Of a stretch of DNA of 64,000 nt, positions 12,515-42,407 are shown piece by piece. Below the pieces are notes generated by a model. The model was not told where the DNA came from and did no database searches. It saw only the letters and a list, made by a program, of their open reading frames with translations. A program made the translations under genes and the position numbers. The stretch's first letter is position 1. Each line of letters starts with the position of its first letter. Origin of the DNA: Escherichia phage TrudiRoth; sequence record MZ501109; one strand, written 5' to 3'.

Positions 12515-15410
12515 TTCTAGCCCCCAATTCAGCAAGAGCTTCCTCATGCATCTGACGTTCTTCATCTGTCATAAACTTAACTGGAATCGGCATACATTCG
12601 ATCTTACAGTAAGTTCTGTACCAGTCCACAATCTTTTCCGTATCCAGATCTTTACCGATACCCATCATGCCAAGATACATACGAGCATATTTTGGGTTAG
12701 CGCTCTGACCTGTCTTAAGGAAGAAATCCTTCTTCTTATTCTTAAGAGCTTCGATAAACGGTTTGATTGTTACGTTTGAACACTTTTTAATATCTTCCCA
12801 GAACATGTCGTGCATCTTATGGAAGAATGCAGCTCTATCGTTTGGTTTATCCTTAATATACTGTTCAACGTGTTCCACTATTACATCTTTAATAGAATCC
12901 AGATGATAATAGCGAACCAGAAGTAACTTGGCTTCATAGGCATCTGCATGACGTGGTGCGCAATATTCAGGAGTTGAGTGCAAAATAGCTTTGATTCGCT
13001 CTTCTATATACTCGTTGCCTGCACCTTCGATAGTTCCCCAGCTTTCGCTGAAAATATCGATAGTTGCACCCTGATCAAGCAGATAATAACGCAAAGTACT
13101 AGTATAGTTTCTAGATTCCAGCTCACGACGACGTGCGTACAGTTGTTGGGCTAACTCAATCCAACCTTCGTCAATATTATATTGCTCGGAACCCGCAGAA
13201 AATCCACTCGTAGATTTATCAATAAAATAATAAATGTTCTGAGCACCACGGTCGCGCCTGATTGCTTGGAAACGCATGTTTGGCGCTTGGTTTGAGGTTC
13301 TAGTGATTACGAATACGTTATCAAAATAGTTAAAGTCAACACCACTCGTTACAGATGGACTACATAATAAACAATCAATCTGTTGATCAATTAGCTCATT
13401 AGTTGTATAATCCAGAATACGTCGGATATCTACATCAGACGTAGAGTTTGAGTGAATTTCTTTAACTAACGCACCAGTATTACGACGTAATGCCATTCCC
13501 TTCTCATTCAGTTCATCAGGGCCACAATCAGATACTAGGATTGATTTCTCCCCCATCTCTAAAGATGTTTGAAGTGCAACCCAAATACTGGATTCATCAG
13601 GGAATTCATAAGCATGAGCTTTTGCCAGCATTTTACGGTGATGATTATAGAACGCAACCGGTTTATCAAAATCAATCAAAGAACCATAGGCTTCAATCGT
13701 TTCTGCACTGATATCCCCATCAGATAAGATCACCGTTTTTGCAGTAATAAGAATATCACGAAGAACCTGAATACATTCACGACGGTTTTTAACAACCGGA
13801 GCGAATAACAGATCATTCATTACTGCGTCACATTCATCAATAAAGATCGTATCAATCTGACCCACAAAGCTCTTGAACTTATGTATAGAGTGAATAGTTG
13901 AAGACATACGATCAATAGCACCACGTTTGAAGTTCAGCATATCAACTGACTTATCATACTGGCCAGCACCGAATTTCTTCGCGTTAGAAGATACAAGTGC
14001 CCTAGTATTTGTGATTGCAATAAAGTTTCCTGGAAGAACACCTGCATCTAGCCACTTAGTTACTGCGGTAGTTTTACCCGTACCAAGACTTGCCTTAACA
14101 AATGTTAAATGTCCTTTTGGTGGTACAATATTAATTTTCAGGTATGGAACTTCTGGTGGAGAATCTGTGTCTAGACGTTTTAATGGTACACCTTTTAAGT
14201 TTGGTGGAATCTCACGTTTGGAGTTATTTACAAAGGCTTTGAGAGCCTGCTTACGACCGTTATTAAAGTAATCTTGAATATTACGACTATTATCCTTAGT
14301 TGCAATATATTCAGATAAGGCTGGTTTAATCTCACGTTCCAACCACGTAAAATCAACACCATCTTCTAACGCTCTGTGATAAAGTTTTGGGATAATACGC
14401 AGGTACACTCCATCCTCAGCTTCTTCTAGTTCGCTGATGGTTTCTTCCACTTTATCAGATGCAGCCTTCTTACCTTTAATTTGGTCAAGTAAGGAGTAGA
14501 ATTCTTCTTTGAACTCGCCTCTAGTTGTCTCAAAGTCAACTAGGTTATTAGGTAGATTCACCTTCGAACCCTTAACGTACACAAGACGTGGTTTATTCTC
14601 CGCTTTAAACGGATCGACTATACCATCATCAAATAAGGGATCTGCGAAATAGTGAAGCTGAACAGAAGAATAATAAGCTAAGTCAGCAATATCAAAGCCA
14701 TACTTTTGCTTACTACTGTCATTGATAGATGTAAATAAGAACTTTAACTGTCCCTGCGTTACCTTGACATTAGATTCTAGCATTAAGTGCATTCGGATAC
14801 CTAGTTTTAGGCCAGCCGAAGACGATGCATGAGCAATAAACCCTGCATCAAGAGGGAACATATCCTCACTAATACTATTCAACATCTTAATAATATGACG
14901 TGCCATGCCAACAAGATTAAACTTGTCATAGCCACCAGTATCTACAATACCATCCACGTCCATAGCAATAATATGACTAGGATTGGATACGTTAAAGTTT
15001 CCTCTGGTACGACGCACATTATCTTTTGGAGCTAGACATTTACCACGAATAGCTACAATATGCGGGTCTTTGGTAAGACGACGCATGATAGGTAACATTT
15101 CAGCAAGGTTTTGCGGGTCAAGTTCTTCAAGTACGTCAAATTTGAAGGGCATGGAAGCTGGTTTACCTTCTGGATGCTCTTTAGAGAATCGCTTTGCAAA
15201 GGTGTAATCTTCCACTTTGATCTCTTTCCAGATGCCAGTGGCTTTATCTCTGGAAAATCCTGCGTGACCTTGTAGGATTGAGAACACAACAATACTCCTA
15301 TGTTGGTTATTCGAATATCTTTCTTTAGGACTATTCAAAAGAATAGAACAACTATTACTACCATTTACACAAACATTAATCATCATCAAGCAGTATGAAT
15401 AAGTTATCAT
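12498..15410 (-). CDS. large SF2 helicase-domain protein (970 aa), putative replication initiation / origin-binding helicase
   Basis: Walker A KASLGTGKTT and DExD-like IFIDECD in central region. Confidence 0.65.
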   Translation of the reverse strand: MITYSYCLMMINVCVNGSNSCSILLNSPKERYSNNQHRSIVVFSILQGHAGFSRDKATGIWKEIKVEDYTFAKRFSKEHPEGKPASMPFKFDVLEELDPQNLAEMLPIMRRLTKDPHIVAIRGKCLAPKDNVRRTRGNFNVSNPSHIIAMDVDGIVDTGGYDKFNLVGMARHIIKMLNSISEDMFPLDAGFIAHASSSAGLKLGIRMHLMLESNVKVTQGQLKFLFTSINDSSKQKYGFDIADLAYYSSVQLHYFADPLFDDGIVDPFKAENKPRLVYVKGSKVNLPNNLVDFETTRGEFKEEFYSLLDQIKGKKAASDKVEETISELEEAEDGVYLRIIPKLYHRALEDGVDFTWLEREIKPALSEYIATKDNSRNIQDYFNNGRKQALKAFVNNSKREIPPNLKGVPLKRLDTDSPPEVPYLKINIVPPKGHLTFVKASLGTGKTTAVTKWLDAGVLPGNFIAITNTRALVSSNAKKFGAGQYDKSVDMLNFKRGAIDRMSSTIHSIHKFKSFVGQIDTIFIDECDAVMNDLLFAPVVKNRRECIQVLRDILITAKTVILSDGDISAETIEAYGSLIDFDKPVAFYNHHRKMLAKAHAYEFPDESSIWVALQTSLEMGEKSILVSDCGPDELNEKGMALRRNTGALVKEIHSNSTSDVDIRRILDYTTNELIDQQIDCLLCSPSVTSGVDFNYFDNVFVITRTSNQAPNMRFQAIRRDRGAQNIYYFIDKSTSGFSAGSEQYNIDEGWIELAQQLYARRRELESRNYTSTLRYYLLDQGATIDIFSESWGTIEGAGNEYIEERIKAILHSTPEYCAPRHADAYEAKLLLVRYYHLDSIKDVIVEHVEQYIKDKPNDRAAFFHKMHDMFWEDIKKCSNVTIKPFIEALKNKKKDFFLKTGQSANPKYARMYLGMMGIGKDLDTEKIVDWYRTYCKIECMPIPVKFMTDEERQMHEEALAELGARNDSEE

Positions 15411-15783
15411 ACCTCAGTGCTGCGCTCTCTTAACTCTTATCCAGATCAGAACCTAGGTCATTGGCCGCTAAGCCGATTCTGATTGCCCTCACTATCCTAT
15501 TGGTAGGTGGCTACTGGACGTGTCACCATTCGCTGCTCTTTTCGTTCGCACCCCCATATAAAGCTCTGCCTATATAACGAGCTAAATATGCACGGTTTGG
15601 ATTTACCTTTCCGAATTCAGGGTACGCAGATCACTTAATTGATAATTAACTAATGCAGTATAAACACTAGTAATAGTTAAAACAACCCTTAATGGGGCAG
15701 CCTAACTGTTCCGTATTGCGGATTGTAAACAAGAAAAATTAGCAAAATCAATTTTTACTAATGTCTCTCAATTCAATATAAAT

Positions 15784-15812
15784 ATTATATCAAGATTTTG
15801 AGCATCCTGCAA
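15784..15812 (-). promoter_or_regulatory. sigma70 promoter (TTGCAG-17-TATAAT) for the 970-aa gene, leaving a ~350-nt leader
   Basis: Reverse complement reads ttacTTGCAGgatgctcaaaatcttgaTATAATatttat. Confidence 0.5.
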
Positions 15813-15850
15813 GTAAAATTTTTCCGAAGGTGCTATCAGTGTCCTTGAGC

Positions 15851-15880
15851 ACAGAGAAAACCGAGTCATTTTGACTCGGT
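15851..15880 (-). terminator. Rho-independent terminator
   Basis: Perfect 9-bp stem accgagtca/tgactcggt, 3-nt loop, then tttctctg on minus strand. Confidence 0.65.
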
Positions 15881-15903
15881 AATCAGGATTGAGCTAATGA
15901 AAA

Positions 15904-16299
15904 TCAATCATCATTTAGGCCTGGGACATAGATTCCAATGCGATTTAATTGACCTTTAGCTTCTTCGAGAATATCTTCGGTGTACTCCCAAATATCATCT
16001 TCTACTTGCAAAAGATAAGGGGATTCACCAGTTTCGGGGTCACGTGTAATGGCTAAGCCACGTGGATGGAATATAGAGAAGTTGAGGGCAACAATCAAGC
16101 CCATACTGGACAATTCATTCCAGTCAGCTTCCCAACCATCATCTTCATCTTCGTCCACAAAGACACCTACACTAGGGTCTGTTACAGAAGTAAACGGAAA
16201 TGTTACACTAACCTTGTCAACCCCCAACCAACGTGCAAGGAGCCCTTCAGCACGCTCTACCAAACTAGGATCTATCTGACGCCAAAATACTTGTTCCAT
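15904..16299 (-). CDS. hypothetical protein (131 aa), paralog of the adjacent gene
   Basis: Shared segment W.ELS.MGL..ALN...F.P........TGE.P...V.....W.Y. Confidence 0.6.
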   Translation of the reverse strand: MEQVFWRQIDPSLVERAEGLLARWLGVDKVSVTFPFTSVTDPSVGVFVDEDEDDGWEADWNELSSMGLIVALNFSIFHPRGLAITRDPETGESPYLLQVEDDIWEYTEDILEEAKGQLNRIGIYVPGLNDD

Positions 16300-16308
16300 T
16301 CTGCCTCC

Positions 16309-16737
16309 TTAAGCAGTTAAACCTGGGATCATATACCCGAAACGACGAAGTTTCTGAATCCCCTCATTTACTTCCTCGGGCGAATATGACCAGCCCTCAC
16401 TTTCATTTACCTGGAAAGCAGGAGCTTCACCAGTGCGATAATTTACAATAAGACGGTGATTTGCAGGCATAAACAGCTTATGGTTCAAGGCAAAAACCAG
16501 ACCCATTTCATCGAGTTCTTTCCAGTCTACAATCTCTTCTACTCCCTCCCCTAAATCCACGCTAACTCCAATACACGGAGCTTCCTCTAGTGGGCCTTTA
16601 AAAGACAGGAAGATATCGTTATTCTCACACCAAATCTTAAGCAGATTGATGGTTTCATTGTACATACCATTAGGGAGAGAACGCCAGAAGTTGAGGAGCA
16701 TAGGATTTACCTCTTTCATGAAAATATTATTGAACAT
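16309..16737 (-). CDS. hypothetical protein (142 aa), paralog of the adjacent gene
   Basis: Alignable by eye over ~70 residues with the 131-aa neighbour. Confidence 0.6.
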   Translation of the reverse strand: MFNNIFMKEVNPMLLNFWRSLPNGMYNETINLLKIWCENNDIFLSFKGPLEEAPCIGVSVDLGEGVEEIVDWKELDEMGLVFALNHKLFMPANHRLIVNYRTGEAPAFQVNESEGWSYSPEEVNEGIQKLRRFGYMIPGLTA

Positions 16738-16739
16738 GC

Positions 16740-17255
16740 TTATACCTTAAGTTTCTGAAGAGCCTTACACATTTCAAGATCTGGACTAAATTCCAGCATA
16801 TAGCTTATAGCATTTAAATCTTGAAGGTTTATTCCAGTCCTGCCATTTACAATAACAGTAGGAAATTGGTACATCATAGCACCAGCATCATCTAGGACGC
16901 ACCAATGCTTGAGCTTATGTTTTTCTACGAAACGTAAGACAGAATTACCTCGAGATAAACCACCTCCAGTAAAATCTGTTGTACCAAGAAAACGATCGAT
17001 CAAACCGAGTCCGGTCATAATCTGAACGTTCTCCATTTCATTTCGTACAGAAAACCATGAAGAGACCCCAACAATCATTATTGGGGAGGGTTTAAGAAAG
17101 TTCTGAAAAGCCTGGAGTAATGGCTTATAAACCCAATCACTGCCAAAGAACAGCTTTTCACTGTCTGGAGCATAATGGTGAGAGATGCTCGAATTGAGCA
17201 CCCCATCAATATCCAGGAAAATCACAGGAGTATTACTTATTTCCACCAGTAGCAT
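16740..17255 (-). CDS. HAD-superfamily phosphatase (nucleotidase-like)
   Basis: HAD motif I FLDIDGVLN near N-terminus and motif IV VLDDAG; start probably the internal Met (MLLVEI). Confidence 0.6.
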   Translation of the reverse strand: MLLVEISNTPVIFLDIDGVLNSSISHHYAPDSEKLFFGSDWVYKPLLQAFQNFLKPSPIMIVGVSSWFSVRNEMENVQIMTGLGLIDRFLGTTDFTGGGLSRGNSVLRFVEKHKLKHWCVLDDAGAMMYQFPTVIVNGRTGINLQDLNAISYMLEFSPDLEMCKALQKLKV

Positions 17256-17418
17256 CCCACGTCCAGACTTTAACTTCATCAGTAAAAGGAACTGGAACCT
17301 TCAATTCACCTTTACCCCACATAACAGATAGGAACAGAGAATAAATGGTAATCATACCGATTAGGTTGACAAACCATACTAGACCTTTCCAGATACCCTT
17401 AAAAATCTTCTTCACCAT
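17233..17418 (-). CDS. small membrane protein (about 61 aa)
   Basis: Hydrophobic helix WFVNLIGMITIYSLFLSVMW; strong RBS aaggaggg before internal Met. Confidence 0.4.
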   Translation of the reverse strand: MVKKIFKGIWKGLVWFVNLIGMITIYSLFLSVMWGKGELKVPVPFTDEVKVWTWDATGGNK

Positions 17419-17581
17419 ATTCTCCCTCCTTAATAAGGAACTCTTTCCATTCTGCTGTATCCTCATAGATAACGCAGAAATCATCACTCTTCCATGAGAA
17501 GTCATCGGTAGCAAATTCGAAACGGTAGCACCAACTACCGTCCGGCCATACTAAAAGATCACACATGCTCTTGCGGTGCAT
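17399..17581 (-). CDS. hypothetical protein (60 aa)
   Basis: ORF track; RBS ggaagg upstream. Confidence 0.4.
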   Translation of the reverse strand: MHRKSMCDLLVWPDGSWCYRFEFATDDFSWKSDDFCVIYEDTAEWKEFLIKEGEYGEEDF

Positions 17582-18410
17582 AAATAGTTCCTTCCATAAA
17601 GGCTTCTACTTGACCAATGAAATGCTTGTTACCAAAAACTTCGGCAGCTCCAGCCCGCCATACAGTAACACCACGTTTCTCATACTCAAGCTGTTCATCA
17701 TAACGAACTTGAGGGTTAACAACCATCATCTTAGTTCCACGACATACAGCAGGAAATAGCTCCCAGTTGAAGTCGATTACTTGGTTGCTACAACCTACTA
17801 CAATAACCATATCATTGCTAGTAAGTGTATCAAACAGGTTAATCTGACCCATATACCACGGAGCCGTCTCACCAAAGAATGTTACGTTTGGTTTTACCCA
17901 TTCGTAATCCTCAGGGGCAATCGCAGTATACCCAACATCTTCGATGATTTGGTTGCGACCCTGACGATAGATCACCTCTTTCAAGTACCCGTGAGCGTGA
18001 ATGATTTCATCACGAGGGATACCAGCACGTTCCAGAAGGTCATCAACGTTAGTAGTGAAGTTCTTCACGCTATCCGCACCATAACGCTGGAACCATTCTG
18101 CAATTCGCAGATGGGCAATGTTAGGCTCAACAGTCTGTAATTCCTGACGACGCATGTTGTAGAACTCATGAGTCTTGAGATACAGATCGTTACCATCTTT
18201 ATCAATGCCAGGGAAACGAGCACTGAAGTAGTTAGGATCATCTTCACCACAGAAGCGACGGAAGCCAGCTTCAAAGTTAGGCAAGCTACATACTTCCTCT
18301 AGATCGTACTCATCCCACAAGGATTTCCCACTAGCAGTATCAGTACGGAAAGCACGAACACCACTATCTACACTCAAACCTGCACCACTAACAACGATTA
18401 GTCTACGCAT
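17559..18410 (-). CDS. Sir2-family (sirtuin-like) NAD-binding protein lacking a Zn-ribbon
   Basis: Sirtuin motifs GAGLSVDSG...FR, TTNVDDLLERAG...HAHG, VTFFGE, VVGCS; no CxxC pairs. Confidence 0.65.
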   Translation of the reverse strand: MRRLIVVSGAGLSVDSGVRAFRTDTASGKSLWDEYDLEEVCSLPNFEAGFRRFCGEDDPNYFSARFPGIDKDGNDLYLKTHEFYNMRRQELQTVEPNIAHLRIAEWFQRYGADSVKNFTTNVDDLLERAGIPRDEIIHAHGYLKEVIYRQGRNQIIEDVGYTAIAPEDYEWVKPNVTFFGETAPWYMGQINLFDTLTSNDMVIVVGCSNQVIDFNWELFPAVCRGTKMMVVNPQVRYDEQLEYEKRGVTVWRAGAAEVFGNKHFIGQVEAFMEGTIYAPQEHV

Positions 18411-18604
18411 TATACGATTCCTTGCTTGAATCCTTCGATGATATTTTGGAGCAGAATTGCTTCTTCTGGGCGAACCTTCTCTTGCTTAATAAGCATATCC
18501 AAACCAGCAATACAGGTAGCTACTCCAGCATTATACCCAGCATTCCACTGCTCCATGAGCATATTTTCTAAATTACTTTTTAGATTCTGATTCAAGAAGT
18601 CCAT
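18410..18604 (-). CDS. hypothetical protein (about 64 aa; start adjusted)
   Basis: Track ORF 18410..18688; internal Met preceded by ggagg RBS. Confidence 0.4.
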   Translation of the reverse strand: MDFLNQNLKSNLENMLMEQWNAGYNAGVATCIAGLDMLIKQEKVRPEEAILLQNIIEGFKQGIV

Positions 18605-18776
18605 AAAGTTTTTCCTCCAATTCCATAATACGATTTTCGTAAGAAGCACGCAGCTTCTCGATGGACAAAGCACGAACTGTAACTTCATCTGAATTGATCG
18701 CTAGCTGAGCTAGATCTTCTGTTTCCATACGTCCGTTGTAAATTAAGCGATATTTAAGATGTTTTACGTTTTTCAT
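18573..18776 (-). CDS. hypothetical protein (67 aa)
   Basis: ORF track. Confidence 0.4.
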   Translation of the reverse strand: MKNVKHLKYRLIYNGRMETEDLAQLAINSDEVTVRALSIEKLRASYENRIMELEEKLYGLLESESKK

Positions 18777-18785
18777 TCTTGTTCC

Positions 18786-19067
18786 TTAGTTCTGTACTGT
18801 AAATTCATTCTTATCACAGTGAGCATAATAATACCCATACATACGATAAATTTTCACAGCCTTAGTAGACCCCTTCGATTCTTCATAATCAATCCAGAGC
18901 CACTTGTCTTTACCTACATAATGTACCCGAAACTTCTTAACTTTCTTATCATTCCATGTTGCAACAACACGACGATAATCAAATCCGCCCAACCAATCTA
19001 GAGCCTTACGTTCTTCACTAGGCTCTCCAAGATGGGAAACATCTACTTTTGGAAGCAATTCGCTCAT
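18786..19067 (-). CDS. hypothetical protein (93 aa)
   Basis: ORF track; canonical promoter upstream. Confidence 0.5.
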   Translation of the reverse strand: MSELLPKVDVSHLGEPSEERKALDWLGGFDYRRVVATWNDKKVKKFRVHYVGKDKWLWIDYEESKGSTKAVKIYRMYGYYYAHCDKNEFTVQN

Positions 19068-19095: not shown

Positions 19096-19124
19096 ATTAT
19101 ACATAAGTTTTAGTTCGAAAGCAA
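19096..19124 (-). promoter_or_regulatory. early-type sigma70 promoter (TTGCTT-17-TATAAT)
   Basis: Reverse complement reads ttatTTGCTTtcgaactaaaacttatgTATAATtgatttataaatttgagaggag. Confidence 0.6.
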
Positions 19125-19125: not shown

Positions 19126-19159
19126 TAAAATAAAAGCCAGGTCGACTAGCAACCTGGCT
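19126..19159 (-). terminator. Rho-independent terminator downstream of nrdD
   Basis: 7-bp stem agccagg/cctggct, then U-tract on minus strand. Confidence 0.6.
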
Positions 19160-36282: not shown

Positions 36283-36357
36283 CGGGGTGTAGTCTAAGGG
36301 ATAGGCAGGAGTCTTCTAAATTCCTTTATGCAGGTTCGAATCCTGTCACCTCGGCCA
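36283..36357 (+). tRNA. tRNA-Arg (anticodon UCU)
   Basis: Hand-folded cloverleaf: acceptor cggggtg/cacctcg, anticodon loop cuUCUaa, T-arm gcaggTTCGAATcctgt, encoded CCA. Confidence 0.7.
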
Positions 36358-36383
36358 ATTTTATTAACTGCTAGGAAAATAAA

Positions 36384-36584
36384 GTGAAAACACGATATAT
36401 AGTAAAAGTAGTAGGTGAACATTCACAAGTAAATACCACCGATGTTACAGCGCTAGCATTTGAAGTAGTCTCCGGTATAGTCATATTTCATAACGGAGAT
36501 ATCAAAGCTCCTGAATTTGCTGTGGATGCTAGCCTGTTTATTTCTGCAACTAAAGTAACTGTAGTAGCTAACTCTTCTAAATAA
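36384..36584 (+). CDS. hypothetical protein (66 aa, GTG start)
   Basis: ORF track. Confidence 0.4.
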   Translation: MKTRYIVKVVGEHSQVNTTDVTALAFEVVSGIVIFHNGDIKAPEFAVDASLFISATKVTVVANSSK

Positions 36585-36595
36585 TAAGGAAATAT

Positions 36596-37540
36596 ATGTT
36601 TACTAAAAACACTAAAGAACTGACTTCCGATCAAAAAGTAATTCGTACTATTAAACGTTGGGGCGTTGGTGCTGTAGTTGGTCTTGGCGCTCTTATTCTG
36701 GCTCTCAATTCCTATACAGTTGTTCAGGACGGTACGGTTAAAACTCAGACTTTCCTGGGTAAAGTTAGTCCTAATCCTGTATTGCCGGGGTTCCATATTG
36801 TCAACCCATTCGCCTCTTTTGATACTTTTAGTACGAAAGATATTTCTATGAAACTGGATAAACTTCAGGTTCCTAGCCAGGATAAGTTTAAGTCCACTGT
36901 TGACATTACCGTTATGTTGCAGTTTGATGGTGCTAAAGCTCCTATGAACCGTGTTAACGCAGGTACTCAGGATCAAGCTCTGAACAAGTACGTTGAAGAG
37001 AAGATGCTATCTACGATTCGTGAGTTTGGTAAGTCTGTACCAAAAGCACAAGATCTGTTCGACGCTAAGATTCAGGCTCAACTGCAAACTGCTATTCAGC
37101 AAGAAGTAGAAGAGTACGCGCGTCCTTATGGTTACACGGTTAAGCAAGTATTCCTTCAGGATATTACTCTGCCACCTGTAATCATGGAACAGGTACAAAA
37201 CACAAAAGTTCGTGAAGAACAAGTTAACGCCGCTAAAGCTGAATTGGCTCGTGTTGAACAAGAAGCACAGCAGAAAGTTAAGCAAGCTGAAGCTGATCGT
37301 TCTGCTCGTGAAAACATGGCAGTAGCTAACGAACGTGACGCAGATGCTAAACTGTACGCAGCTAAGAAAGAAGCTGAAGCTAACGCCGCGCTGCAACGTA
37401 CCATTACTCCTGAAATGATTCGTTGGAAGCAGCTGGAAGTTGAAATGCTTCGTGCTGAAAAATACCAAGGTGGTGTACCGCAGACTGTTGTTGGTACTGG
37501 CTACGATGGTCAAATGATCATGGATATGCGTAACAAGTAA
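36596..37540 (+). CDS. SPFH/band-7 (prohibitin/HflC-like) membrane protein
   Basis: N-terminal TM helix, SPFH-like core, long C-terminal coiled coil. Confidence 0.65.
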   Translation: MFTKNTKELTSDQKVIRTIKRWGVGAVVGLGALILALNSYTVVQDGTVKTQTFLGKVSPNPVLPGFHIVNPFASFDTFSTKDISMKLDKLQVPSQDKFKSTVDITVMLQFDGAKAPMNRVNAGTQDQALNKYVEEKMLSTIREFGKSVPKAQDLFDAKIQAQLQTAIQQEVEEYARPYGYTVKQVFLQDITLPPVIMEQVQNTKVREEQVNAAKAELARVEQEAQQKVKQAEADRSARENMAVANERDADAKLYAAKKEAEANAALQRTITPEMIRWKQLEVEMLRAEKYQGGVPQTVVGTGYDGQMIMDMRNK

Positions 37541-37563
37541 TAGTTACACGTAATCTTCGAACC

Positions 37564-37596
37564 AAGCCCGCGTTTCCTCTGAGAGCGCGGGCTTTT
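37564..37596 (+). terminator. Rho-independent terminator
   Basis: 8-bp stem agcccgcg/cgcgggct, then tttctg. Confidence 0.6.
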
Positions 37597-37743
37597 CTGT
37601 ATTTAAGGCAAAAGAAAAGCCCATAAGTTATTCAACTAAGGTCTTTAGTATTTAATTCTTTAGAATCATATACTATTATTTCAGCAACAACGTGCTGCCC
37701 TTAAGTGCCCTGCGATTTTCCTCTAAAAAGTTAAAAAATTCGA

Positions 37744-37772
37744 TTGCTTGAATGCTAAATTCTCTGTATAAT
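37744..37772 (+). promoter_or_regulatory. early-type sigma70 promoter (TTGCTT-17-TATAAT)
   Basis: attcgaTTGCTTgaatgctaaattctctgTATAATatatttataaatttgagagagg. Confidence 0.6.
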
Positions 37773-37802
37773 ATATTTATAAATTTGAGAGAGGAATCAA
37801 AT

Positions 37803-38858
37803 ATGATTAAGACTGGTCTAGTAATTGGTAAGTTCGCACCATTAACACGTGGTCATATTAACCTAATAAACACAGCAGCAACTATGTGTGAACGAGTTAT
37901 AGTTGTAGTTAGTCATGATAATCGCTGGCTGGATAAACAAAACACACGTGATCAGGAAGTCTTACAGTTAAAGAACCGACTTCGTTGGTTAGAACAAACT
38001 TACGCGGATATTGAGCACATTTCGGTAGAGTACATTATTGAAGATGATATTCCTGAATATCCGAATGGTTGGCCGGAATATGCTAGAATACTTAATGAAA
38101 ATTATGGACATTTGCCTGAGATCACCATTTTCTCTAGCGAACTAGACTATGATGCAGAATATAAGAAATATCTGCCGAAGTTTGGTCATTATATTGTAGA
38201 TTCTGATCGGACTCGTGTTCCAATCTCAGCTACAATGATTCGTAATGATCTTATGAAGTATTGGGAGTTTCTTCCTAGCGTAGTTCGTAAAGATTACGTG
38301 CGTAAGGTTGTAATCATTGGGACTGAAAGCTCGGGAAAGACTACTTTAACAAAATACCTTGCGAAGCTATACAACACTTCGTGGGTAGAAGAATATGGTC
38401 GAACGTATTGTGAAGTTGATCTAGTTGGTAACGAAAATCTGCTTACCAGCGAAGATTATAGTAAAATTGCGTTCAGACACAAAGAGCTAGAGTTTGAAGC
38501 AGAACGTACTGCAAATAAGATCATGTTTGTGGATACAAATGCTTTTATTACTGAGTTCTACCACAGACTTTATGAACATAGTAAGAATCCTGTGGTTACA
38601 GCAATTGCAAAAGAAGAACATTATGATTTAGTAATTGTTCTAGCGCCTACTGTCAAGTGGGTAGATGATGGTTTACGTATTAACTCCGATCGTTCAATTA
38701 CTTCTGAACTGTTCGAGCAGATGAAGAAAGAATTTCCAAATCAGTTCCCTGAAGGGCGTACTGTTTACATCGACTCTCCGGACTACAAAGTTCGTATGGA
38801 CGAAGCAGTAAACGCAGTAGACTGGCTGATTCATCACTTTAACGTTGGAGAGTTTTAA
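37803..38858 (+). CDS. NadR-like bifunctional NMN adenylyltransferase / ribosylnicotinamide kinase
   Basis: Nucleotidyltransferase motif GKFAPLTRGH at N-terminus; P-loop kinase IIGTESSGKTT in C-terminal half; start moved to ATG 37803. Confidence 0.7.
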   Translation: MIKTGLVIGKFAPLTRGHINLINTAATMCERVIVVVSHDNRWLDKQNTRDQEVLQLKNRLRWLEQTYADIEHISVEYIIEDDIPEYPNGWPEYARILNENYGHLPEITIFSSELDYDAEYKKYLPKFGHYIVDSDRTRVPISATMIRNDLMKYWEFLPSVVRKDYVRKVVIIGTESSGKTTLTKYLAKLYNTSWVEEYGRTYCEVDLVGNENLLTSEDYSKIAFRHKELEFEAERTANKIMFVDTNAFITEFYHRLYEHSKNPVVTAIAKEEHYDLVIVLAPTVKWVDDGLRINSDRSITSELFEQMKKEFPNQFPEGRTVYIDSPDYKVRMDEAVNAVDWLIHHFNVGEF

Positions 38859-38859
38859 T

Positions 38860-39537
38860 ATGACTAACTATCTCGTAAATGACTTTAAAAACTGGAAACC
38901 TCTGGAATATCTGTGGCTGTTCATAGCGGTTGTCTTCATTAGTTTAGCAAACTATAATGGTACAGCTCTAGATTGGGCTACTGCAATAACCAATGTGGTT
39001 TGTGTTATTCTGGTTGCAAAAGGACGTGTTTCCAACTATATTTGGGGCTTAGTGGGTGTTCTTACATATGGTATTACAGCTTTAAACGCAGATCTTTATG
39101 GTAACGCTGCACTAAACCTGCTATACTACGTTCCTATGCAGTTTTATGGAATGTACTTATGGCATAAAAATAAGCCAAGTAATCTGCCGGATGTTCCAAC
39201 TAAGGTTCTGACTAAAGCCCAAGCTCTGCTGACTCTAGGGATTCTAGCAGTAGCCACGTTAGGGTATGGTAGTTTCTTAGCTACTACGGCTGATCCATTT
39301 CCAATGTTGGATGCATTTACTGCGGTAGGTAGTGTGATCGCTATGTGGCTTATGGTTAAGCAGTATGCCGAGCAGTGGCTGATCTGGATTGCTATTAACA
39401 TTGGTACTGTGTACATTTGGCTTGTAACTGCTCAATCTACAGGTGCATCTTATGCAATCCTAGCAATGTGGCTAGTATTCTTAGGTAACTCTATTATGGG
39501 AGCCTATAAAGGATACTTTGTACGCGTTAACAAATAA
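38860..39537 (+). CDS. PnuC-like nicotinamide riboside/NMN transporter
   Basis: Polytopic membrane protein immediately downstream of the NadR-like gene; multiple Trp/Asn-rich TM helices. Confidence 0.55.
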   Translation: MTNYLVNDFKNWKPLEYLWLFIAVVFISLANYNGTALDWATAITNVVCVILVAKGRVSNYIWGLVGVLTYGITALNADLYGNAALNLLYYVPMQFYGMYLWHKNKPSNLPDVPTKVLTKAQALLTLGILAVATLGYGSFLATTADPFPMLDAFTAVGSVIAMWLMVKQYAEQWLIWIAINIGTVYIWLVTAQSTGASYAILAMWLVFLGNSIMGAYKGYFVRVNK

Positions 39538-39544
39538 AGTAGTT

Positions 39545-39572
39545 ATAGCCCTCGCTTAGAGGGCTATTATAC
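39545..39572 (+). terminator. Rho-independent terminator
   Basis: 9-bp stem atagccctc/gagggctat, loop gctta. Confidence 0.55.
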
Positions 39573-39584
39573 AGAAATTTTCAC

Positions 39585-39613
39585 TTGCTTAATATAGAAA
39601 ATTTCTGTATAAT
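39585..39613 (+). promoter_or_regulatory. early-type sigma70 promoter (TTGCTT-17-TATAAT)
   Basis: ttcacTTGCTTaatatagaaaatttctgTATAATatatttataaatttgagagagg. Confidence 0.6.
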
Positions 39614-39643
39614 ATATTTATAAATTTGAGAGAGGAATCAAAT

Positions 39644-39940
39644 ATGAAACGCATTGTACTTGCATTGACTCTAGTATCTACTTCTGTATTTGCTGCTCCA
39701 CAACAGGAACTTTGTCAAGTTCAAGTTTGTAATAAGCTAGAACGATTTACTCTAGACATTTGGTCACATATTAAAGATAATATGGGTGAACAGTGTTTTG
39801 ATATTGTTCTGCCAAAAGAACAAGCTGTTCCTGGTGCTGTTCTCAGTTCAGAATCACGTTGGTGGCAGGGTTCTTCTATCAATCCAACTAAGAAGTCAGT
39901 GACACGTATCAAACAAGTATATCAGTGCAATGTTCAGTAA
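39644..39940 (+). CDS. secreted small protein (98 aa)
   Basis: Signal peptide MKRIVLALTLVSTSVFA; start placed after RBS. Confidence 0.55.
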   Translation: MKRIVLALTLVSTSVFAAPQQELCQVQVCNKLERFTLDIWSHIKDNMGEQCFDIVLPKEQAVPGAVLSSESRWWQGSSINPTKKSVTRIKQVYQCNVQ

Positions 39941-39948
39941 AATTTCAC

Positions 39949-39977
39949 TTGCTTAATGCCGAAATTTTCTGTATAAT
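39949..39977 (+). promoter_or_regulatory. early-type sigma70 promoter driving a tRNA operon
   Basis: ttcacTTGCTTaatgccgaaattttctgTATAATatattcataatttcggaag; tRNA starts ~15 nt after -10. Confidence 0.6.
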
Positions 39978-39991
39978 ATATTCATAATTTC

Positions 39992-40085
39992 GGAAGATTA
40001 ACCCTAAAGGTAAGGGAGCTGTTTGCTAAACAGCTAGTAGCTGTGGAAACACGGTGTGCCAGTTCGAGTCTGGCATCTTCCTCCA
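39992..40085 (+). tRNA. tRNA-Ser (anticodon GCU), long variable arm
   Basis: Acceptor ggaagat/atcttcc, anticodon loop uuGCUaa, variable-arm hairpin with GAAA loop, T-arm gccagTTCGAGTctggc, CCA. Confidence 0.7.
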
Positions 40086-40090
40086 AATTT

Positions 40091-40168
40091 GGTTCTCAAG
40101 CTCATTTGGTATGAGCCGTCGCCTCATAAGCGAAAGGTAGGTAGGTTCGAATCCTCCGGGAGCCACCA
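40091..40168 (+). tRNA. tRNA with CAU anticodon (Met, fMet or Ile2)
   Basis: Acceptor ggttctc/gggagcc, D-arm gctc-atttggtat-gagc, anticodon loop cuCAUaa, CCA. Confidence 0.65.
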
Positions 40169-40185
40169 ATTAACTAGGAGACGAT

Positions 40186-40371
40186 ATGTCTAAGTTTCAG
40201 GAATTGAAGCAGGAACTAGAAGAGTGTGCCTGCCCAAAATGCTTCGGAGCAGGTGAATGGAACGATGCTGAACCTGGTGATACATGGTATAATACATACG
40301 TTTGTACACATTGTAATGGTTCTGGTATTAATCCTGAATGCGGTATTTCTCTAGGTATTGAGCGAGGCTAA
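40186..40371 (+). CDS. small Cys-rich zinc-ribbon-like protein (61 aa)
   Basis: CACPKCFG ... CTHCNGSG. Confidence 0.5.
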   Translation: MSKFQELKQELEECACPKCFGAGEWNDAEPGDTWYNTYVCTHCNGSGINPECGISLGIERG

Positions 40372-40372
40372 G

Positions 40373-40705
40373 ATGGATATTTACACTACACCAGCAGTAA
40401 ACCTGATTGGCTCTTGCCTTGTGCATTTCCGCTTCTTCCAAACGGATGATAGCAAAGAGGAGTATACCTATCCTCTGATGGATTTTCAGATTGAGGACTT
40501 CTTCCGTGAAGTGCGTAATATCTCTGAGAACTTCTATTATGGCATGGATAAGGAAGACTTTGACATTGAGTTCCCTATAATCTCTCGTTATTTCCTAGAG
40601 CAGTCCGACGCTCGGTTTGAGAAGATTGAACACATGGAAGTAGCCTGGGCTATCCAGTTCGAAATTACTGGCTTTGCTCGATACATTCAAGGTTACGAAC
40701 TATGA
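40373..40705 (+). CDS. hypothetical protein (about 110 aa)
   Basis: Track ORF 40358..40705; start moved to ATG after RBS gagcgagg. Confidence 0.5.
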   Translation: MDIYTTPAVNLIGSCLVHFRFFQTDDSKEEYTYPLMDFQIEDFFREVRNISENFYYGMDKEDFDIEFPIISRYFLEQSDARFEKIEHMEVAWAIQFEITGFARYIQGYEL

Positions 40706-40797
40706 AATTAAAAGATTATTATATTGGTTGGTTTGTAGGACTAATAGTAGGATTTTCACTGGGCTACAACTTGTATCAACTGATAAACTGATTACAT

Positions 40798-40874
40798 GGG
40801 GGTGTAATCGAATTGGCATAGGTACTGGACTTAAAATTCAGGTTTTGTGGGTTCGAATCCCACCACCCCTACCA
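40798..40874 (+). tRNA. tRNA with UAA anticodon (Leu-type) but short variable arm; D-stem poorly defined
   Basis: Acceptor gggggtg/cacccct, anticodon arm ctgga-cuUAAaa-ttcag, T-arm gtgggTTCGAATcccac, A73, CCA. Confidence 0.45.
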
Positions 40875-41025
40875 AATTAAGGAAATAAAATGAAAGCTAT
40901 TAAGAAAGCACTGCGTAAATTTATGTATTGTCGTTTTCATAGCATCAAGGCTTCAACTAATGGTACTACTTACGATCGCTATGATCCTAAGTTTGGCTTA
41001 CATTCTAAATAACTGGAGAAAACAA

Positions 41026-41232
41026 ATGGCTAATCCTGAAATTACGGCACAACGCTTTATGCTGAAAGGAATTATTGCTGAAGCAGGCATGACAGAAGAA
41101 GTTGCAGATTTTCAAAAGCAATTCCTCAATATTCTCACTCAAGCCAAAGAGCTAGGAGAGAAAGAACATGGCGCGGCTATTATGGCAATCACATTGGTTG
41201 GGCTTGATCTGGCTGAAGAATCAGGAGTTTAA
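41026..41232 (+). CDS. hypothetical protein (about 68 aa)
   Basis: Track ORF 40960..41232; start moved to ATG after RBS ctggag. Confidence 0.4.
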   Translation: MANPEITAQRFMLKGIIAEAGMTEEVADFQKQFLNILTQAKELGEKEHGAAIMAITLVGLDLAEESGV

Positions 41233-41262
41233 CTCCTCCAAGCAGAAATTTTAAAAATGTAC

Positions 41263-41292
41263 TTGCTTTTTACTTAAGATTTCTGCTATAAT
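41263..41292 (+). promoter_or_regulatory. early-type sigma70 promoter (TTGCTT-18-TATAAT)
   Basis: gtacTTGCTTtttacttaagatttctgcTATAATagttatataagttgatgagagg. Confidence 0.55.
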
Positions 41293-41321
41293 AGTTATAT
41301 AAGTTGATGAGAGGAATCAGA

Positions 41322-41588
41322 ATGTTAAAACGTTTTGCAGCAACTGGTATTGAAAGCTCAGTATGTAAATCCTGGGGTGGTTGGGAAGGTGAGATCGAGT
41401 GGCTTTATTTCTACAATGTAGAACTTCTTCCAGAGATCAAAGCTCAATGTATTGAGGCTGGTATGGCTCCTGATGCTACGGCTGATGTTGAAATCAGCAT
41501 GAATAAGCTAGAGGGTCGAGTAGTCACTGTTACTGATGAAGGTGAAGAGGTATTCGAACTTCCATTCACTTTGAAAGTCACTCCTTAA
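41322..41588 (+). CDS. hypothetical protein (88 aa)
   Basis: ORF track, start after RBS. Confidence 0.5.
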   Translation: MLKRFAATGIESSVCKSWGGWEGEIEWLYFYNVELLPEIKAQCIEAGMAPDATADVEISMNKLEGRVVTVTDEGEEVFELPFTLKVTP

Positions 41589-41633
41589 TTTGATTAACTG
41601 ATACAGCACTGAGCAAGTTCTTTAAAATTTGAC

Positions 41634-41662
41634 TTGCTCAGTCCTTCAAAACTTGATATAAT
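41634..41662 (+). promoter_or_regulatory. sigma70 promoter (TTGCTC-17-TATAAT) driving a tRNA operon
   Basis: tttgacTTGCTCagtccttcaaaacttgaTATAATagttatc. Confidence 0.55.
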
Positions 41663-41726
41663 AGTTATCTAATTTGGAAAACATATTTAAAAGTGTTTAA
41701 ACTAGTATTTGAATATTTCTAAATAT

Positions 41727-41817
41727 GTTGGATTAGTATCGTAGAGGTAGCGAAGCAGACTGTAAATCTGCCGACTCGGAAGGGTCTCGGGTGGTTCGAC
41801 TCCATCATCCAACACCA
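41727..41817 (+). tRNA. tRNA-Tyr (anticodon GUA), long variable arm
   Basis: Perfect acceptor gttggat/atccaac, anticodon arm gcaga-cuGUAaa-tctgc, CCA. Confidence 0.7.
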
Positions 41818-41824
41818 AATTTAA

Positions 41825-41901
41825 GTCCTGTTAGACAAACTGGTAAAGTCACTACCCTTTCAAGGTAGGATTTGCGGGTTCGATCCCCGCACAGGACGCC
41901 A
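41825..41901 (+). tRNA. tRNA-Glu (anticodon UUC)
   Basis: Acceptor gtcctgt/acaggac, anticodon arm ctacc-cuUUCaa-ggtag, T-arm gcgggTTCGATCcccgc, CCA. Confidence 0.75.
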
Positions 41902-41904
41902 ATT

Positions 41905-41986
41905 TCTGCATTCCTAGAGTGTTACTGGACAGCATGTCGGTCTCCAAAACCGTACGGTCTAGGTTCGAGTCCTAGTAGGTTTGCCA
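41905..41986 (+). other. tRNA-like element lacking a pairing 5' acceptor strand (possible degenerate tRNA)
   Basis: Anticodon-like loop cuCCAaa, T-arm ctaggTTCGAGTcctag, 3' ...taggtttgCCA; no complementary 5' 7-mer found upstream. Confidence 0.3.
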
Positions 41987-41992
41987 ATATTT

Positions 41993-42067
41993 GCACCTTT
42001 AGCTGAGATGGATTAGCGCTTGCCTGAAGAGCTTGAGAGGTTCGTTCGATACGAACAGGGTGCACCA
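41993..42067 (+). tRNA. tRNA-Phe (anticodon GAA), weak anticodon stem
   Basis: Acceptor gcacctt/agggtgc, D-stem gctg/tagc, anticodon loop cuGAAga with two U-U mismatches in stem, T-arm gttcgTTCGATAcgaac, CCA. Confidence 0.55.
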
Positions 42068-42084
42068 ATTTGAAGGAGATGCTG

Positions 42085-42378: not shown

Positions 42379-42407
42379 TATTACATAAATTGAACTGGAG
42401 AAGCAAC

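What the first reader, a model, noticed from the sequence alone, without database searches (positions are those of the whole stretch)
15904..18410. Small-gene module: tandem paralogs, HAD phosphatase, micro-membrane protein and Sir2-like protein
Two adjacent genes (131 and 142 aa) are clear paralogs, followed in the same operon by a HAD-type phosphatase (FLDIDGVLN), a ~61-aa membrane protein and the Sir2-like gene, all bracketed by a terminator and promoter. None of the small proteins has a recognisable motif. The co-transcription of NAD-binding and phosphatase genes could indicate a nucleotide-modifying or host-takeover module.
Basis: partly seen in the sequence, partly recalled or inferred. 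Interest (0 to 1): 0.45.

Follow-up and report, generated by a model that had tools for sequence, protein, structure and literature searches.

The report
T5-like phage sirtuin–phosphatase early operon
This is the well-conserved early operon of T5-like phages that carries a zinc-less sirtuin, a small HAD phosphatase and two copies of a phage-only protein of unknown function; the sirtuin–phosphatase pairing has already been described and predicted, but never tested, to repair cut RNA using NAD+.

Summary
The genes are real, but the unit is larger than reported. It is a nine-gene operon on the minus strand (19124–15860), running from a T5 P-N25-type promoter to a strong terminator.

- **Source.** The window is an Epseptimavirus, 99.3% identical to Salmonella phage Seafire. 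The operon corresponds to about T5.101–T5.107 of phage T5.
- **Sirtuin.** All NAD+ and catalytic motifs are present, but the zinc cysteines are absent. It is neither CobB-type nor defence-type.
- **Phosphatase.** It has all four HAD motifs, belongs to Pfam HAD_SAK_2, and has a confident fold closest to capless HADs.
- **Paralogs.** Each consists of two DUF7415 domains, with no solved structural relative.

Iyer et al. 2022 (PMC9503650) already described the sirtuin–HAD neighbourhood in T5-like phages. They predicted NAD+-dependent RNA end repair. I found no experimental test.

I confirmed that a same-clade sirtuin sits in an RNA ligase–cREC–sirtuin operon in a Vequintavirus. However, the roughly 80 kb of T5-like sequence I examined has no ligase or kinase homologue.

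New leads:
- HAD homologues sit inside NARP1 NAD+-rebuilding operons in other phages.
- DUF7415 is fused elsewhere to nucleotide enzymes.
- DUF7415 stays with the sirtuin where the HAD is missing.

Function remains inferred. Novelty is low and interest is modest.

The parts
19135..19159 (-). Intrinsic terminator of the upstream nrdD gene; marks the upstream boundary of the operon
   Evidence: 10-bp stem with 6 GC pairs plus a T run
19096..19124 (-). Early promoter of the operon (TTGCTT, 17-nt spacer, TATAAT), of the T5 P-N25 type
   Evidence: Sequence read. Aligns with the annotated T5 P-N25, including the -35 and -10 hexamers, their spacing and the downstream ATAAATTTGAGAG. The generic scan missed it because the -35 matches only 3 of 6 consensus bases.
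18786..19067 (-). First gene of the operon, 93 aa, function unknown
   Evidence: phrog_7953 at E 8.8e-66; annotated CDS in Seafire
18573..18776 (-). 67-aa gene, function unknown; homologue of T5.101
   Evidence: phrog_5236 at E 1.8e-46; phmmer hit to the T5 ORF just upstream of T5 Sir2, E 2.9e-35
18410..18604 (-). 64-aa gene whose stop overlaps the sirtuin start (ATAATG)
   Evidence: phrog_5827. The Seafire CDS is noted as a membrane protein, but hydrophobicity is only moderate (Kyte-Doolittle 0.98).
17559..18410 (-). Zinc-less sirtuin (283 aa) of the phage-specific clade; homologue of T5.102
   Evidence: PF02146 at 1.4e-21. Best solved relative is E. coli CobB 1s5p at 1.6e-16. Clade invariants are GAGxS, TTNVDD, HxHG and FFGE, with no conserved Cys pairs. 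NCBIfam CobB cutoffs are not reached and there is no PADLOC hit.
17399..17581 (-).
   Evidence: phrog_5116 at 3.5e-29; Seafire CDS of 55 aa; phmmer hits at 2.3e-12 and 4e-12
17233..17418 (-). 61-aa single-pass membrane protein
   Evidence: phrog_11166 at 3.1e-44; Kyte-Doolittle 1.93 over residues 14-32; no homologue found in T5 at E<0.01
16740..17279 (-). Capless HAD phosphatase of family HAD_SAK_2 (179 aa; the likely true start is the second Met at 17255); homologue of T5.105
16309..16737 (-). DUF7415 paralog A (142 aa, two DUF7415 domains); homologue of T5.106
15904..16299 (-). DUF7415 paralog B (131 aa, two DUF7415 domains); homologue of T5.107
   Evidence: PF24187 at 3.1e-28. The halves score 44 and 58 bits. 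31% identical to paralog A.
15860..15880 (-). Intrinsic terminator that ends the operon
   Evidence: 9-bp stem plus U tract. MFE -16 kcal/mol against -5.9±2.2 for shuffles, z = -4.65. T5 annotates a terminator at the same place.

Best explanation
This is an early, tightly packed nine-gene accessory operon of a T5-like phage. Its two enzymes most likely work on phosphate-bearing products of RNA cleavage, using NAD+.

**Proposed mechanism**
- The zinc-less sirtuin transfers ADP-ribose from NAD+ onto a 2'-phosphate left at a cut RNA end or junction. This would be chemistry like that of Tpt1/KptA. It would release nicotinamide and ADP-ribose cyclic phosphate.
- The capless HAD phosphatase either removes terminal 2'/3' phosphates from the RNA or dephosphorylates the ADP-ribose-phosphate by-product.
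- The two DUF7415 proteins (four domains in all) are probably non-catalytic partners or adaptors linked to nucleotide-handling enzymes.
- The small proteins have no assignable role.

**Shown**
- The operon structure.
- Intact catalytic motifs in both enzymes.
- The folds.
- Family memberships.
- The genomic associations.

**Inferred**
- The substrates.
- Any cooperation between the proteins.
- The biological purpose, presumed to be countering host anticodon or other RNA nucleases.
For: 1. **Operon.** P-N25-type promoter, gene junctions of 10 nt or less or overlapping, and a strong terminator.
2. **Sirtuin competence.** GAGxS, N121/D123, H140 and FFGE are invariant across eight phage homologues. 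It is far from CobB-type deacylases by NCBIfam cutoffs (87.7 bits against 243) and matches no defence-type SIR2 model.
3. **RNA-repair context of the same clade.** In Vequintavirus JohannBauhin a 46%-identical sirtuin lies in the order T4-type RNA ligase (PF09511), cREC cyclic-phosphate domain (PF20274), sirtuin. That run sits beside a P-loop kinase, a calcineurin-like phosphoesterase and tRNA genes.
4. **HAD family.** The HAD belongs to PF18143, a family defined from multi-domain RNA-repair proteins. All motifs are invariant. Its nearest folds are capless HADs that act on macromolecule-borne or sugar phosphates.
5. **HAD near RNA-repair genes elsewhere.** In Aeromonas phage Aeh1 the HAD lies about 0.7 kb upstream of rnlA, and a DUF7415 gene follows rnlA directly. 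L087 has Rnl, Pnk and a phosphoesterase within 3.5 kb, L109 and L003 have an Rnl2-type ligase within about 4.5 kb, and two lineages have cREC among the next three genes.
6. **Linkage despite rearrangement.** Sir2 and HAD stay linked within Demerecviridae in two gene orders.
7. **Independent publication.** Iyer et al. 2022 reached the same reading for T5-like phage SP15 (PMC9503650).
Against: - No experiment supports any step. Searches found no experimental characterisation of a phage sirtuin of this clade.
- Neither the window nor Seafire positions 1-50,000 (together about 80 kb of T5-like genome) holds a homologue of the Vequintavirus or Aeh1 RNA ligases, kinase, phosphoesterase or cREC, even at E<=1. 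The phage would therefore have to rely on host ligases.
- The HAD is absent from Klebsiella T5-like phages that keep the sirtuin.
- The closest non-Demerecviridae sirtuin (Phapecoctavirus, 60% identity) has no annotated RNA-repair neighbour.
- In a survey of 47 HAD lineages no partner dominated.
- NAD+-salvage genes are neighbours about as often as RNA-repair genes.
- The acyl-lysine-binding elements (FGE, VNP) are retained, so ordinary protein deacylation is not excluded.
- Early accessory genes of large phages cluster anyway, which inflates apparent associations.
Confidence: 0.35

Rival explanations
1. **NAD+/ADP-ribose metabolite processing in the NAD+ arms race.** The HAD dephosphorylates a phosphorylated NAD+ breakdown product or relative, such as ADP-ribose-1''-phosphate, another ADPR-phosphate or NADP+. 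That would let the product re-enter NAD+ synthesis. This would be functionally analogous to the Macro-domain Adpp phosphatase or the RyDEP glycosidase that accompany NARP1. The sirtuin would consume or reshape NAD+-derived molecules rather than act on RNA.
For: - In Serratia phage ChuuTotoro the HAD homologue's stop overlaps the start of an Adps-like gene, which is followed by a Namat-like gene (the NARP1 pair). A related metagenomic phage has the same operon.
- NAMPT-family genes lie within about 2-4 kb of the HAD in two more lineages (L097, L102). A weak partial Prs/Adps-like hit (E 5e-6) lies 5.5 kb away in L106.
- Macro domains occur twice among the nearest upstream genes.
- NARP1 operons are known to recruit accessory enzymes that convert ADPR derivatives into ADPR (10.64898/2026.01.28.702374; PMC13232231).
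- This window itself carries NARP3, a NadR-like and a PnuC-like gene (PMC13464706). T5-like phages use an NAD+-dependent DNA ligase. NAD+ supply therefore matters to this phage.
Against: - This phage has no Adps or Namat. Its salvage route starts from nicotinamide riboside, which needs no phosphatase.
- A sirtuin consumes NAD+, which is hard to fit into a purely NAD+-restoring module.
- The adjacency to NARP1 rests on one tight lineage plus looser cases.
- The fold is capless and closest to phosphatases that act on macromolecule-borne substrates.
- The HAD is not mentioned in the NARP1-accessory papers or in the supplements I could search.
Confidence: 0.2
2. **Host or phage protein modification.** The sirtuin is an ordinary NAD+-dependent lysine deacylase or a protein mono-ADP-ribosyltransferase. 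It would reprogramme host enzymes early in infection. The HAD and DUF7415 genes would be functionally separate nucleotide-pool accessories that merely share the transcript.
For: - The best sequence relatives with solved structures are deacylases: CobB, Sir2Af and SIRT5.
- The catalytic His and the FGE and VNP substrate-tunnel elements are conserved.
- This is the interpretation given for the related Vibrio phage sirtuin, which also lacks the zinc site (PMC5107563).
- The operon lies between nrdD and the replication genes, inside a nucleotide-metabolism region.
- DUF7415 is fused to a dATP/dGTP pyrophosphohydrolase and to a thymidylate kinase in other phage proteins.
- The HAD sits next to td in Aeh1 and to PhoH/RNR in AAS21-like phages.
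Against: - Scores against curated deacylase families are far below their cutoffs.
- The clade lacks the zinc module that shapes the peptide-binding cleft in canonical sirtuins.
- The clade's recurrent neighbours in other phages are RNA-end enzymes, not protein-modification partners.
- The Sir2-HAD linkage persists through gene-order change.
Confidence: 0.25
3. **No functional module.** This is a mosaic of independently acquired non-essential early genes that share a promoter only because T5-like early regions are densely packed.
For: - Each gene has its own distribution. Sir2 is found in 979 phage records, the HAD in 497 and DUF7415 in 881, with different host and taxon spectra.
- The HAD is missing in Sugarlandvirus-type phages. 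DUF7415 is missing in AAS21-like phages. The membrane protein is missing in T5.
- In P2-like prophages DUF7415 simply follows the replication gene A.
- The epseptimavirus sirtuin is closer to the Phapecoctavirus one (60%) than to the T5 one (51%), which suggests gene exchange.
Against: - Sir2, a g60-like gene and DUF7415 are kept together across Markadamsvirinae, and Sir2 with DUF7415 also in My1.
- Sir2 and HAD are kept adjacent in two arrangements.
- HAD and DUF7415 homologues both lie within 2 kb of rnlA in an unrelated T4-like phage.
Confidence: 0.2

Closest known systems
Sirtuin-centred predicted RNA-repair neighbourhoods of phages (Iyer, Burroughs, Anantharaman & Aravind 2022, Viruses 14:1977, section 3.7.3, type 3 'SP15-like')
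   Same: This is the same thing. [quoted passage not shown] The window is 99.3% identical to described epseptimaviruses.
   Different: The paper does not mention the DUF7415 paralogs, the small genes or the operon structure, as far as I could search. I also find no RNA ligase or kinase homologue in the T5-like sequence examined. The prediction remains untested.
Tpt1/KptA RNA 2'-phosphotransferase with Poa1p/Adpp-type ADPR-1''-phosphate phosphatase
   Same: This is the proposed working analogy. NAD+ is used to remove an RNA 2'-phosphate as ADP-ribose cyclic phosphate, and a phosphatase then clears the phosphorylated ADP-ribose.
   Different: The folds are unrelated. Here they are a sirtuin Rossmann fold and a HAD fold. 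Tpt1 has an ADP-ribosyltransferase fold and Poa1p/Adpp a Macro fold. Activity is untested.
Bacterial CobB / class III-U sirtuin deacylases
   Same: CobB is the best solved sequence relative (1s5p, E 1.6e-16). The two share NAD+-binding motifs and the catalytic His.
   Different: There are no zinc-binding cysteines. Gln is replaced by Thr in the TQNID motif. A second invariant His is present (HxHG). Some members carry a variable insertion of about 27 residues. Scores are far below the NCBIfam CobB cutoffs.
Capless (C0) HAD phosphatases: MDP-1, Scp1/FCP CTD phosphatases
   Same: The core fold is the same, DxD catalysis is shared, and there is no large cap domain.
NARP1-AP and RyDEP-NARP1 extended NAD+ reconstitution operons
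   Same: HAD_SAK_2 homologues occupy the accessory-enzyme position directly upstream of Adps and Namat in ChuuTotoro-like phages.
   Different: The known accessory enzymes are Macro or RyR-domain proteins. The window itself has no NARP1, only NARP3 about 20 kb away.

Membership tests
Sirtuin superfamily (Pfam PF02146 SIR2) | Profile match above the curated cutoff | tested here: met
   77.7 bits against a cutoff of 24, E 1.4e-21
Sirtuin superfamily (Pfam PF02146 SIR2) | NAD+-binding and catalytic motifs: GAGxS...FR, (T/Q)N(I/V)D, catalytic His in xHG, FGE | tested here: met
   S8-G-A-G-x-S13, F21-R22, T119-T-N-V-D-D124, H138-x-H140-G, F178-F-x-E181 and S208 are all invariant in eight phage homologues (G180 is Cys in one). 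They align to the CobB motifs.
Sirtuin superfamily (Pfam PF02146 SIR2) | Four-cysteine zinc-binding module in the small domain | tested here: not met
   No conserved Cys pairs between the catalytic His and the FGE motif. The CobB cysteine positions align to non-Cys residues. The related Vibrio phage sirtuin shows the same loss (PMC5107563).
CobB-type NAD-dependent protein deacylase (NCBIfam equivalogs) | Score above the curated equivalog or subfamily cutoff | tested here: not met
   Best is 87.7 bits against a cutoff of 243; prot_deacyl_CobB scores 71.3 against 320
Defence-type SIR2 NADases (ThsA, DSR1/2, SIR2-HerA and others) | Match to PADLOC defence-system models | tested here: not met
   No PADLOC hit for any of the nine operon proteins at E<=0.01
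Phage sirtuin clade predicted to act in RNA repair (Iyer et al. 2022) | Closest relatives are phage sirtuins encoded beside RNA-end-processing genes, without a Macro partner | tested here: met
   46% identity to the JohannBauhin sirtuin, which sits in an Rnl1-cREC-sirtuin operon beside a kinase and a phosphoesterase. No Macro domain in the window operon.
Phage sirtuin clade predicted to act in RNA repair (Iyer et al. 2022) | An RNA ligase, or kinase plus end-healing partner, in the same genome | tested here: not met
   No homologue of Rnl1, Rnl2, the Pnk-like kinase, the phosphoesterase or cREC at E<=1 in the window plus Seafire 1-50 kb. None is annotated there. The last ~34 kb of the genome was not examined.
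Phage sirtuin clade predicted to act in RNA repair (Iyer et al. 2022) | NAD+-dependent removal of RNA 2'-phosphate | not testable with these tools
   Needs biochemistry
HAD superfamily, family HAD_SAK_2 (PF18143) | Profile match above the cutoff over the whole domain | tested here: met
   67.2 bits against 27.5; protein residues 19-154 match profile positions 1-138 of 139
HAD superfamily, family HAD_SAK_2 (PF18143) | Four catalytic motifs: DxD, S/T, K/R, DD | tested here: met
   D23, D25, S73/S74, R110 and D130 are invariant and D131 is nearly invariant (at least 90%) in 27 homologues of 26-88% identity
HAD superfamily, family HAD_SAK_2 (PF18143) | Rossmannoid HAD fold; cap type | tested here: met
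NARP1-associated phosphatase (Adpp, NARP1-AP) | Macro domain; gene inside an Adps-Namat operon; ADPR-1''-P phosphatase activity | tested here: not met
   The fold is HAD, not Macro. No Adps or Namat lies in the window operon. Only homologues in ChuuTotoro-like phages sit in NARP1 operons. Activity cannot be tested here.
DUF7415 (PF24187) | Profile match above the cutoff | tested here: met
   Both proteins match (98 and 125 bits), and each half separately scores 44-73 bits against a cutoff of 27. An in-house hhalign of the N-terminal against the C-terminal halves did not confirm the internal repeat (probability 20%).

The most novel reading that the evidence does not exclude
HAD_SAK_2 phosphatases may be a third class of accessory enzyme in the phage NAD+ arms race, neither Macro nor RyR. 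In this reading they dephosphorylate an ADP-ribose-phosphate species.
- In ChuuTotoro-like phages they would feed NARP1.
- In T5-like phages they would work with a zinc-less sirtuin whose true reaction is NAD+-dependent phosphate removal from RNA or another nucleotide substrate.
- The DUF7415 tandem pair would act as an adaptor that ties these enzymes to nucleotide-metabolism complexes.
Probability: 0.15. Interest if true: 0.6.

Novelty: already known. Interest (0 to 1): 0.3.

Why it matters
If the predicted activity is real, this would be the first sirtuin shown to act on RNA phosphate ends. It would also be a second, unrelated solution to the Tpt1 reaction.

Alternatively, if the HAD works on ADP-ribose phosphates, it would add a new enzyme class to the fast-moving field of NAD+ depletion and reconstitution between bacteria and phages.

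T5-like phages are easy to handle genetically and are used in therapy cocktails, so knockouts are feasible.

As it stands, the finding adds no new sequence feature. The genes are annotated in hundreds of genomes, and the key association is already published as a prediction.

Tried and rejected
- **RefSeq label 'Sir2' on the HAD gene (T5.105).** Rejected as a PHROG label error. phrog_18062 matches HAD residues 88-179.
- **Neighbours of the HAD in ChuuTotoro-like and AAS21-like phages as hidden DUF7415 proteins.** The 140-aa, 118-aa and 116-aa proteins gave no hit by HMM, jackhmmer or BLASTP.
- **RNA ligase as a regular neighbour of DUF7415.** This holds only in Aeh1-like phages. The 'RNA ligase' near DUF7415 in Klebsiella T4-like phages looked like a 2H phosphoesterase from its HTT motif, read by eye and not tested further. 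In P2-like prophages the domain follows gpA.
- **A structured RNA in the operon or its flanks.** No Rfam match.
- **Searches that led nowhere.** Literature searches for DUF7415 and HAD_SAK_2 returned nothing. The DUF7415-Tmk fusion protein could not be located in viral contigs.
- **Neighbour-enrichment survey of 47 HAD lineages.** It gave no dominant partner.


Full report
**What the window is**

The region 15500-18800 is 99.3% identical over its full length to Salmonella phages Seafire and faergetype (Epseptimavirus, Demerecviridae). It has matches in 550 phage records. All genes of the finding lie on the minus strand, between the anaerobic ribonucleotide reductase gene nrdD (21040-19166) and the gene annotated as 'replication origin binding protein'. 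In phage T5 the same block runs from about T5.101 to T5.107. T5.102 is the sirtuin, T5.105 is the HAD and T5.106/T5.107 are the paralogs. A terminator and a promoter are annotated right after T5.107.

**Checking the observation**

Confirmed points:
- The two paralogs are real: 31% identity over 124 ungapped residues, E 8e-21.
- The HAD, the 61-aa membrane protein and the sirtuin are all confirmed.
- The downstream terminator (15880-15860) is a 9-bp GC-rich hairpin with a U tract. Its fold energy lies 4.65 sd below shuffled sequence.

Corrections:
- A conserved 55-60 aa gene at 17399-17581 was overlooked (phrog_5116; CDS in Seafire).
- Three more small genes precede the sirtuin.
- The promoter lies at about 19124-19096, immediately after the nrdD terminator.
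- That promoter aligns to the annotated T5 early promoter P-N25 through the -35 (TTGCTT), the 17-nt spacer, the -10 (TATAAT) and the downstream ATAAATTTGAGAG.

The unit is therefore a nine-gene early operon of about 3.2 kb, with every junction 10 nt or less or overlapping.

**The sirtuin**

It matches PF02146. Its best solved relative is E. coli CobB (E 1.6e-16). I aligned it with seven homologues from T5, Klebsiella T5-like, My1, AAS21-like, Phapecoctavirus and Vequintavirus phages. The NAD+-binding and catalytic residues are invariant: GAGxS...FR, TTNVDD, HxHG and FFxE (the Gly of FFGE is Cys in one sequence). The segment that forms the zinc ribbon in canonical sirtuins has no conserved cysteines. 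A variable insertion of about 27 residues is present in some members.

It scores far below the curated cutoffs of the CobB-type deacylase families. It matches no defence-system model. It is thus a catalytically plausible, zinc-less member of a phage-specific clade found in 979 phage records.

**The HAD**

It matches PF18143 ('HAD domain in Swiss Army Knife RNA repair proteins') over the whole profile. Across 27 homologues down to 26% identity, the four HAD motifs are essentially invariant: D23xD25GVLN, S73/S74, R110 and D130/D131.

RefSeq labels this gene 'Sir2'. That is an error inherited from phrog_18062, which in fact matches the C-terminal half of the HAD.

**The paralogs**

Both belong to Pfam DUF7415. 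Each half of each protein matches the 53-residue profile on its own, at 44-73 bits against a cutoff of 27. The two genes therefore hold four copies of the domain. My own profile comparison of the two halves did not detect the repeat.

- The model is fairly confident (pLDDT 86.6).
- In the viral structure library it matches only other DUF7415 proteins.
- The family is small: 160 representatives among 1.84 billion proteins, mostly 60-200 aa.
- Single-domain versions occur in T4-like phages and in P2-like prophages, where the gene follows replication gene A.
- Three longer relatives fuse the domain to nucleotide enzymes: two to a dATP/dGTP pyrophosphohydrolase (PF04447) and one to a thymidylate kinase (PF02223).
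- Few polar residues are invariant. I read that as a binding or adaptor role rather than catalysis, which is inference only.

**Is it a module?**

Within Demerecviridae the sirtuin is the constant element.
- T5, epseptimaviruses and My1 have Sir2 followed by the HAD.
- AAS21-like phages have the HAD, then a 118-aa gene, then Sir2.
- Klebsiella T5-like phages lack the HAD but keep Sir2, a g60-like gene and two DUF7415 genes.

Outside the family each gene travels alone. The linkage is thus conserved but not obligatory.

**What is known**

Iyer, Burroughs, Anantharaman and Aravind (2022, PMC9503650, section 3.7.3) describe exactly this association. [quoted passage not shown] They group it with two other neighbourhoods of the same sirtuin clade. 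One contains 2H, Nudix, cREC and PIN. The other contains a T4-like RNA ligase, cREC, a kinase, MazG and a calcineurin-like phosphoesterase.

They propose that the sirtuin removes RNA 2'-phosphates as KptA does. In their model the phosphoesterases either open cyclic phosphates or process the ADP-ribose cyclic phosphate by-product. My searches found no experimental work on any phage sirtuin of this clade.

**My tests of that reading**

Supporting:
- In Vequintavirus JohannBauhin the 46%-identical sirtuin lies in the order RNA ligase (PF09511), cREC (PF20274), sirtuin. It is flanked by a P-loop kinase, a calcineurin-like phosphoesterase and a tRNA cluster.
- In Aeromonas phage Aeh1 the HAD homologue and a DUF7415 homologue lie on either side of rnlA. 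The DUF7415 gene starts where rnlA ends, and two related phages show the same layout.
- Other HAD lineages have Rnl, Pnk and a phosphoesterase, or an Rnl2-type ligase, or cREC nearby.

Against:
- No homologue of these ligases, kinase, phosphoesterase or cREC exists in the window or in Seafire 1-50 kb.
- The closest myovirus sirtuin has no such neighbours annotated.
- A survey of three genes on each side of the HAD in 47 lineages found no dominant partner.

**A second lead**

In Serratia phage ChuuTotoro, and in a related metagenomic phage, the HAD gene sits inside the operon that encodes a PRPP-synthetase-like and a NAMPT-like protein. Those are the Adps/Namat pair of NAD+ reconstitution pathway 1. 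NAMPT-like genes also lie within a few kb of the HAD in two further lineages, with a weak Prs-like hit in a third. Macro domains occur twice among its nearest neighbours.

Recent work shows that NARP1 operons recruit accessory enzymes that turn ADPR derivatives into ADPR:
- a Macro-domain ADPR-1''-phosphate phosphatase (10.64898/2026.01.28.702374);
- a RyR-domain glycosidase (PMC13232231).

The HAD is not mentioned in those papers or in the supplements I could search. The window itself carries NARP3, a NadR-like and a PnuC-like gene (PMC13464706). T5-like phages also use an NAD+-dependent DNA ligase. A HAD that dephosphorylates an ADP-ribose phosphate would fit both the sirtuin context and the NARP1 context. 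That is speculation.

**Verdict**

The NAD+ enzyme and phosphatase pairing is meaningful, but it is already in the literature with a more specific prediction, and the genes are annotated in hundreds of near-identical genomes.
- I rank NAD+-dependent RNA phosphate-end processing first (0.35).
- The other readings are protein modification with unrelated neighbours (0.25), NAD+/ADPR metabolite processing (0.2) and no functional module (0.2).
- Novelty: already known. Interest is modest (0.3), carried by the untested biochemistry and by two new leads: HAD genes inside NARP1 operons, and the DUF7415 links to nucleotide enzymes and to the sirtuin.

Noticed in passing
window 15300-15860 (minus strand): About 500 nt of non-coding sequence lies between the operon terminator and the 'origin binding protein' gene. 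It starts with a promoter-like TTGCAG, 17-nt spacer, GATATAAT. As RNA it folds far better than shuffled sequence (MFE -139.6 against -112.9±6.05, z = -4.41). It has no Rfam match. T5 has the same layout. It could be a structured leader, a small RNA or an origin-related element.
   Followed up: partly
window 37752-39537 (plus strand): A NadR-like (NMN adenylyltransferase plus kinase) gene and a PnuC-like transporter gene lie here. Together they form the NARP3 NAD+-restoring pair recently characterised in T5-like phage Bas30 (PMC13464706).
   Followed up: partly
window 16740-17279, and T5.105 in L002 1589-2095: There is a database annotation error. RefSeq and PHROG label the HAD phosphatase 'Sir2 (NAD-dependent deacetylase)'. 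The cause is that phrog_18062 carries that name while matching HAD residues 88-179.
   Followed up: yes
window 15904-16737, and homologues in many records: DUF7415 genes are variously annotated 'tail tube protein', 'exonuclease' or 'anti-CBASS protein acb1' in public records. I found no support for any of these labels.
   Followed up: yes
L006 7603-11217 and L008 5606-9569: In ChuuTotoro-like Serratia phages a HAD_SAK_2 gene is translationally coupled to, or one gene away from, the NARP1 pair (Adps-like and Namat-like). A conserved 140-aa protein precedes it. This may be a new NARP1 accessory enzyme.
   Followed up: partly
proteins P0201, P0203, P0124 (not in the window): DUF7415 is fused to a dATP/dGTP pyrophosphohydrolase (PF04447) and to a thymidylate kinase (PF02223). 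The PF04447 part is common in prophage-sized contigs of about 40 kb.
   Followed up: partly
window 36283-49190 (plus strand): There is a cluster of 23 tRNA genes. One call has an odd 4-base anticodon loop (46586-46661, 'tgca').
   Followed up: no
window 17559-18410 compared with other phages: The epseptimavirus sirtuin is closer to those of Phapecoctavirus myoviruses (about 60%) and Klebsiella T5-like phages (64%) than to that of T5 (51%). A ~27-residue insertion is shared in the same pattern, which suggests gene exchange between phage families.
   Followed up: no
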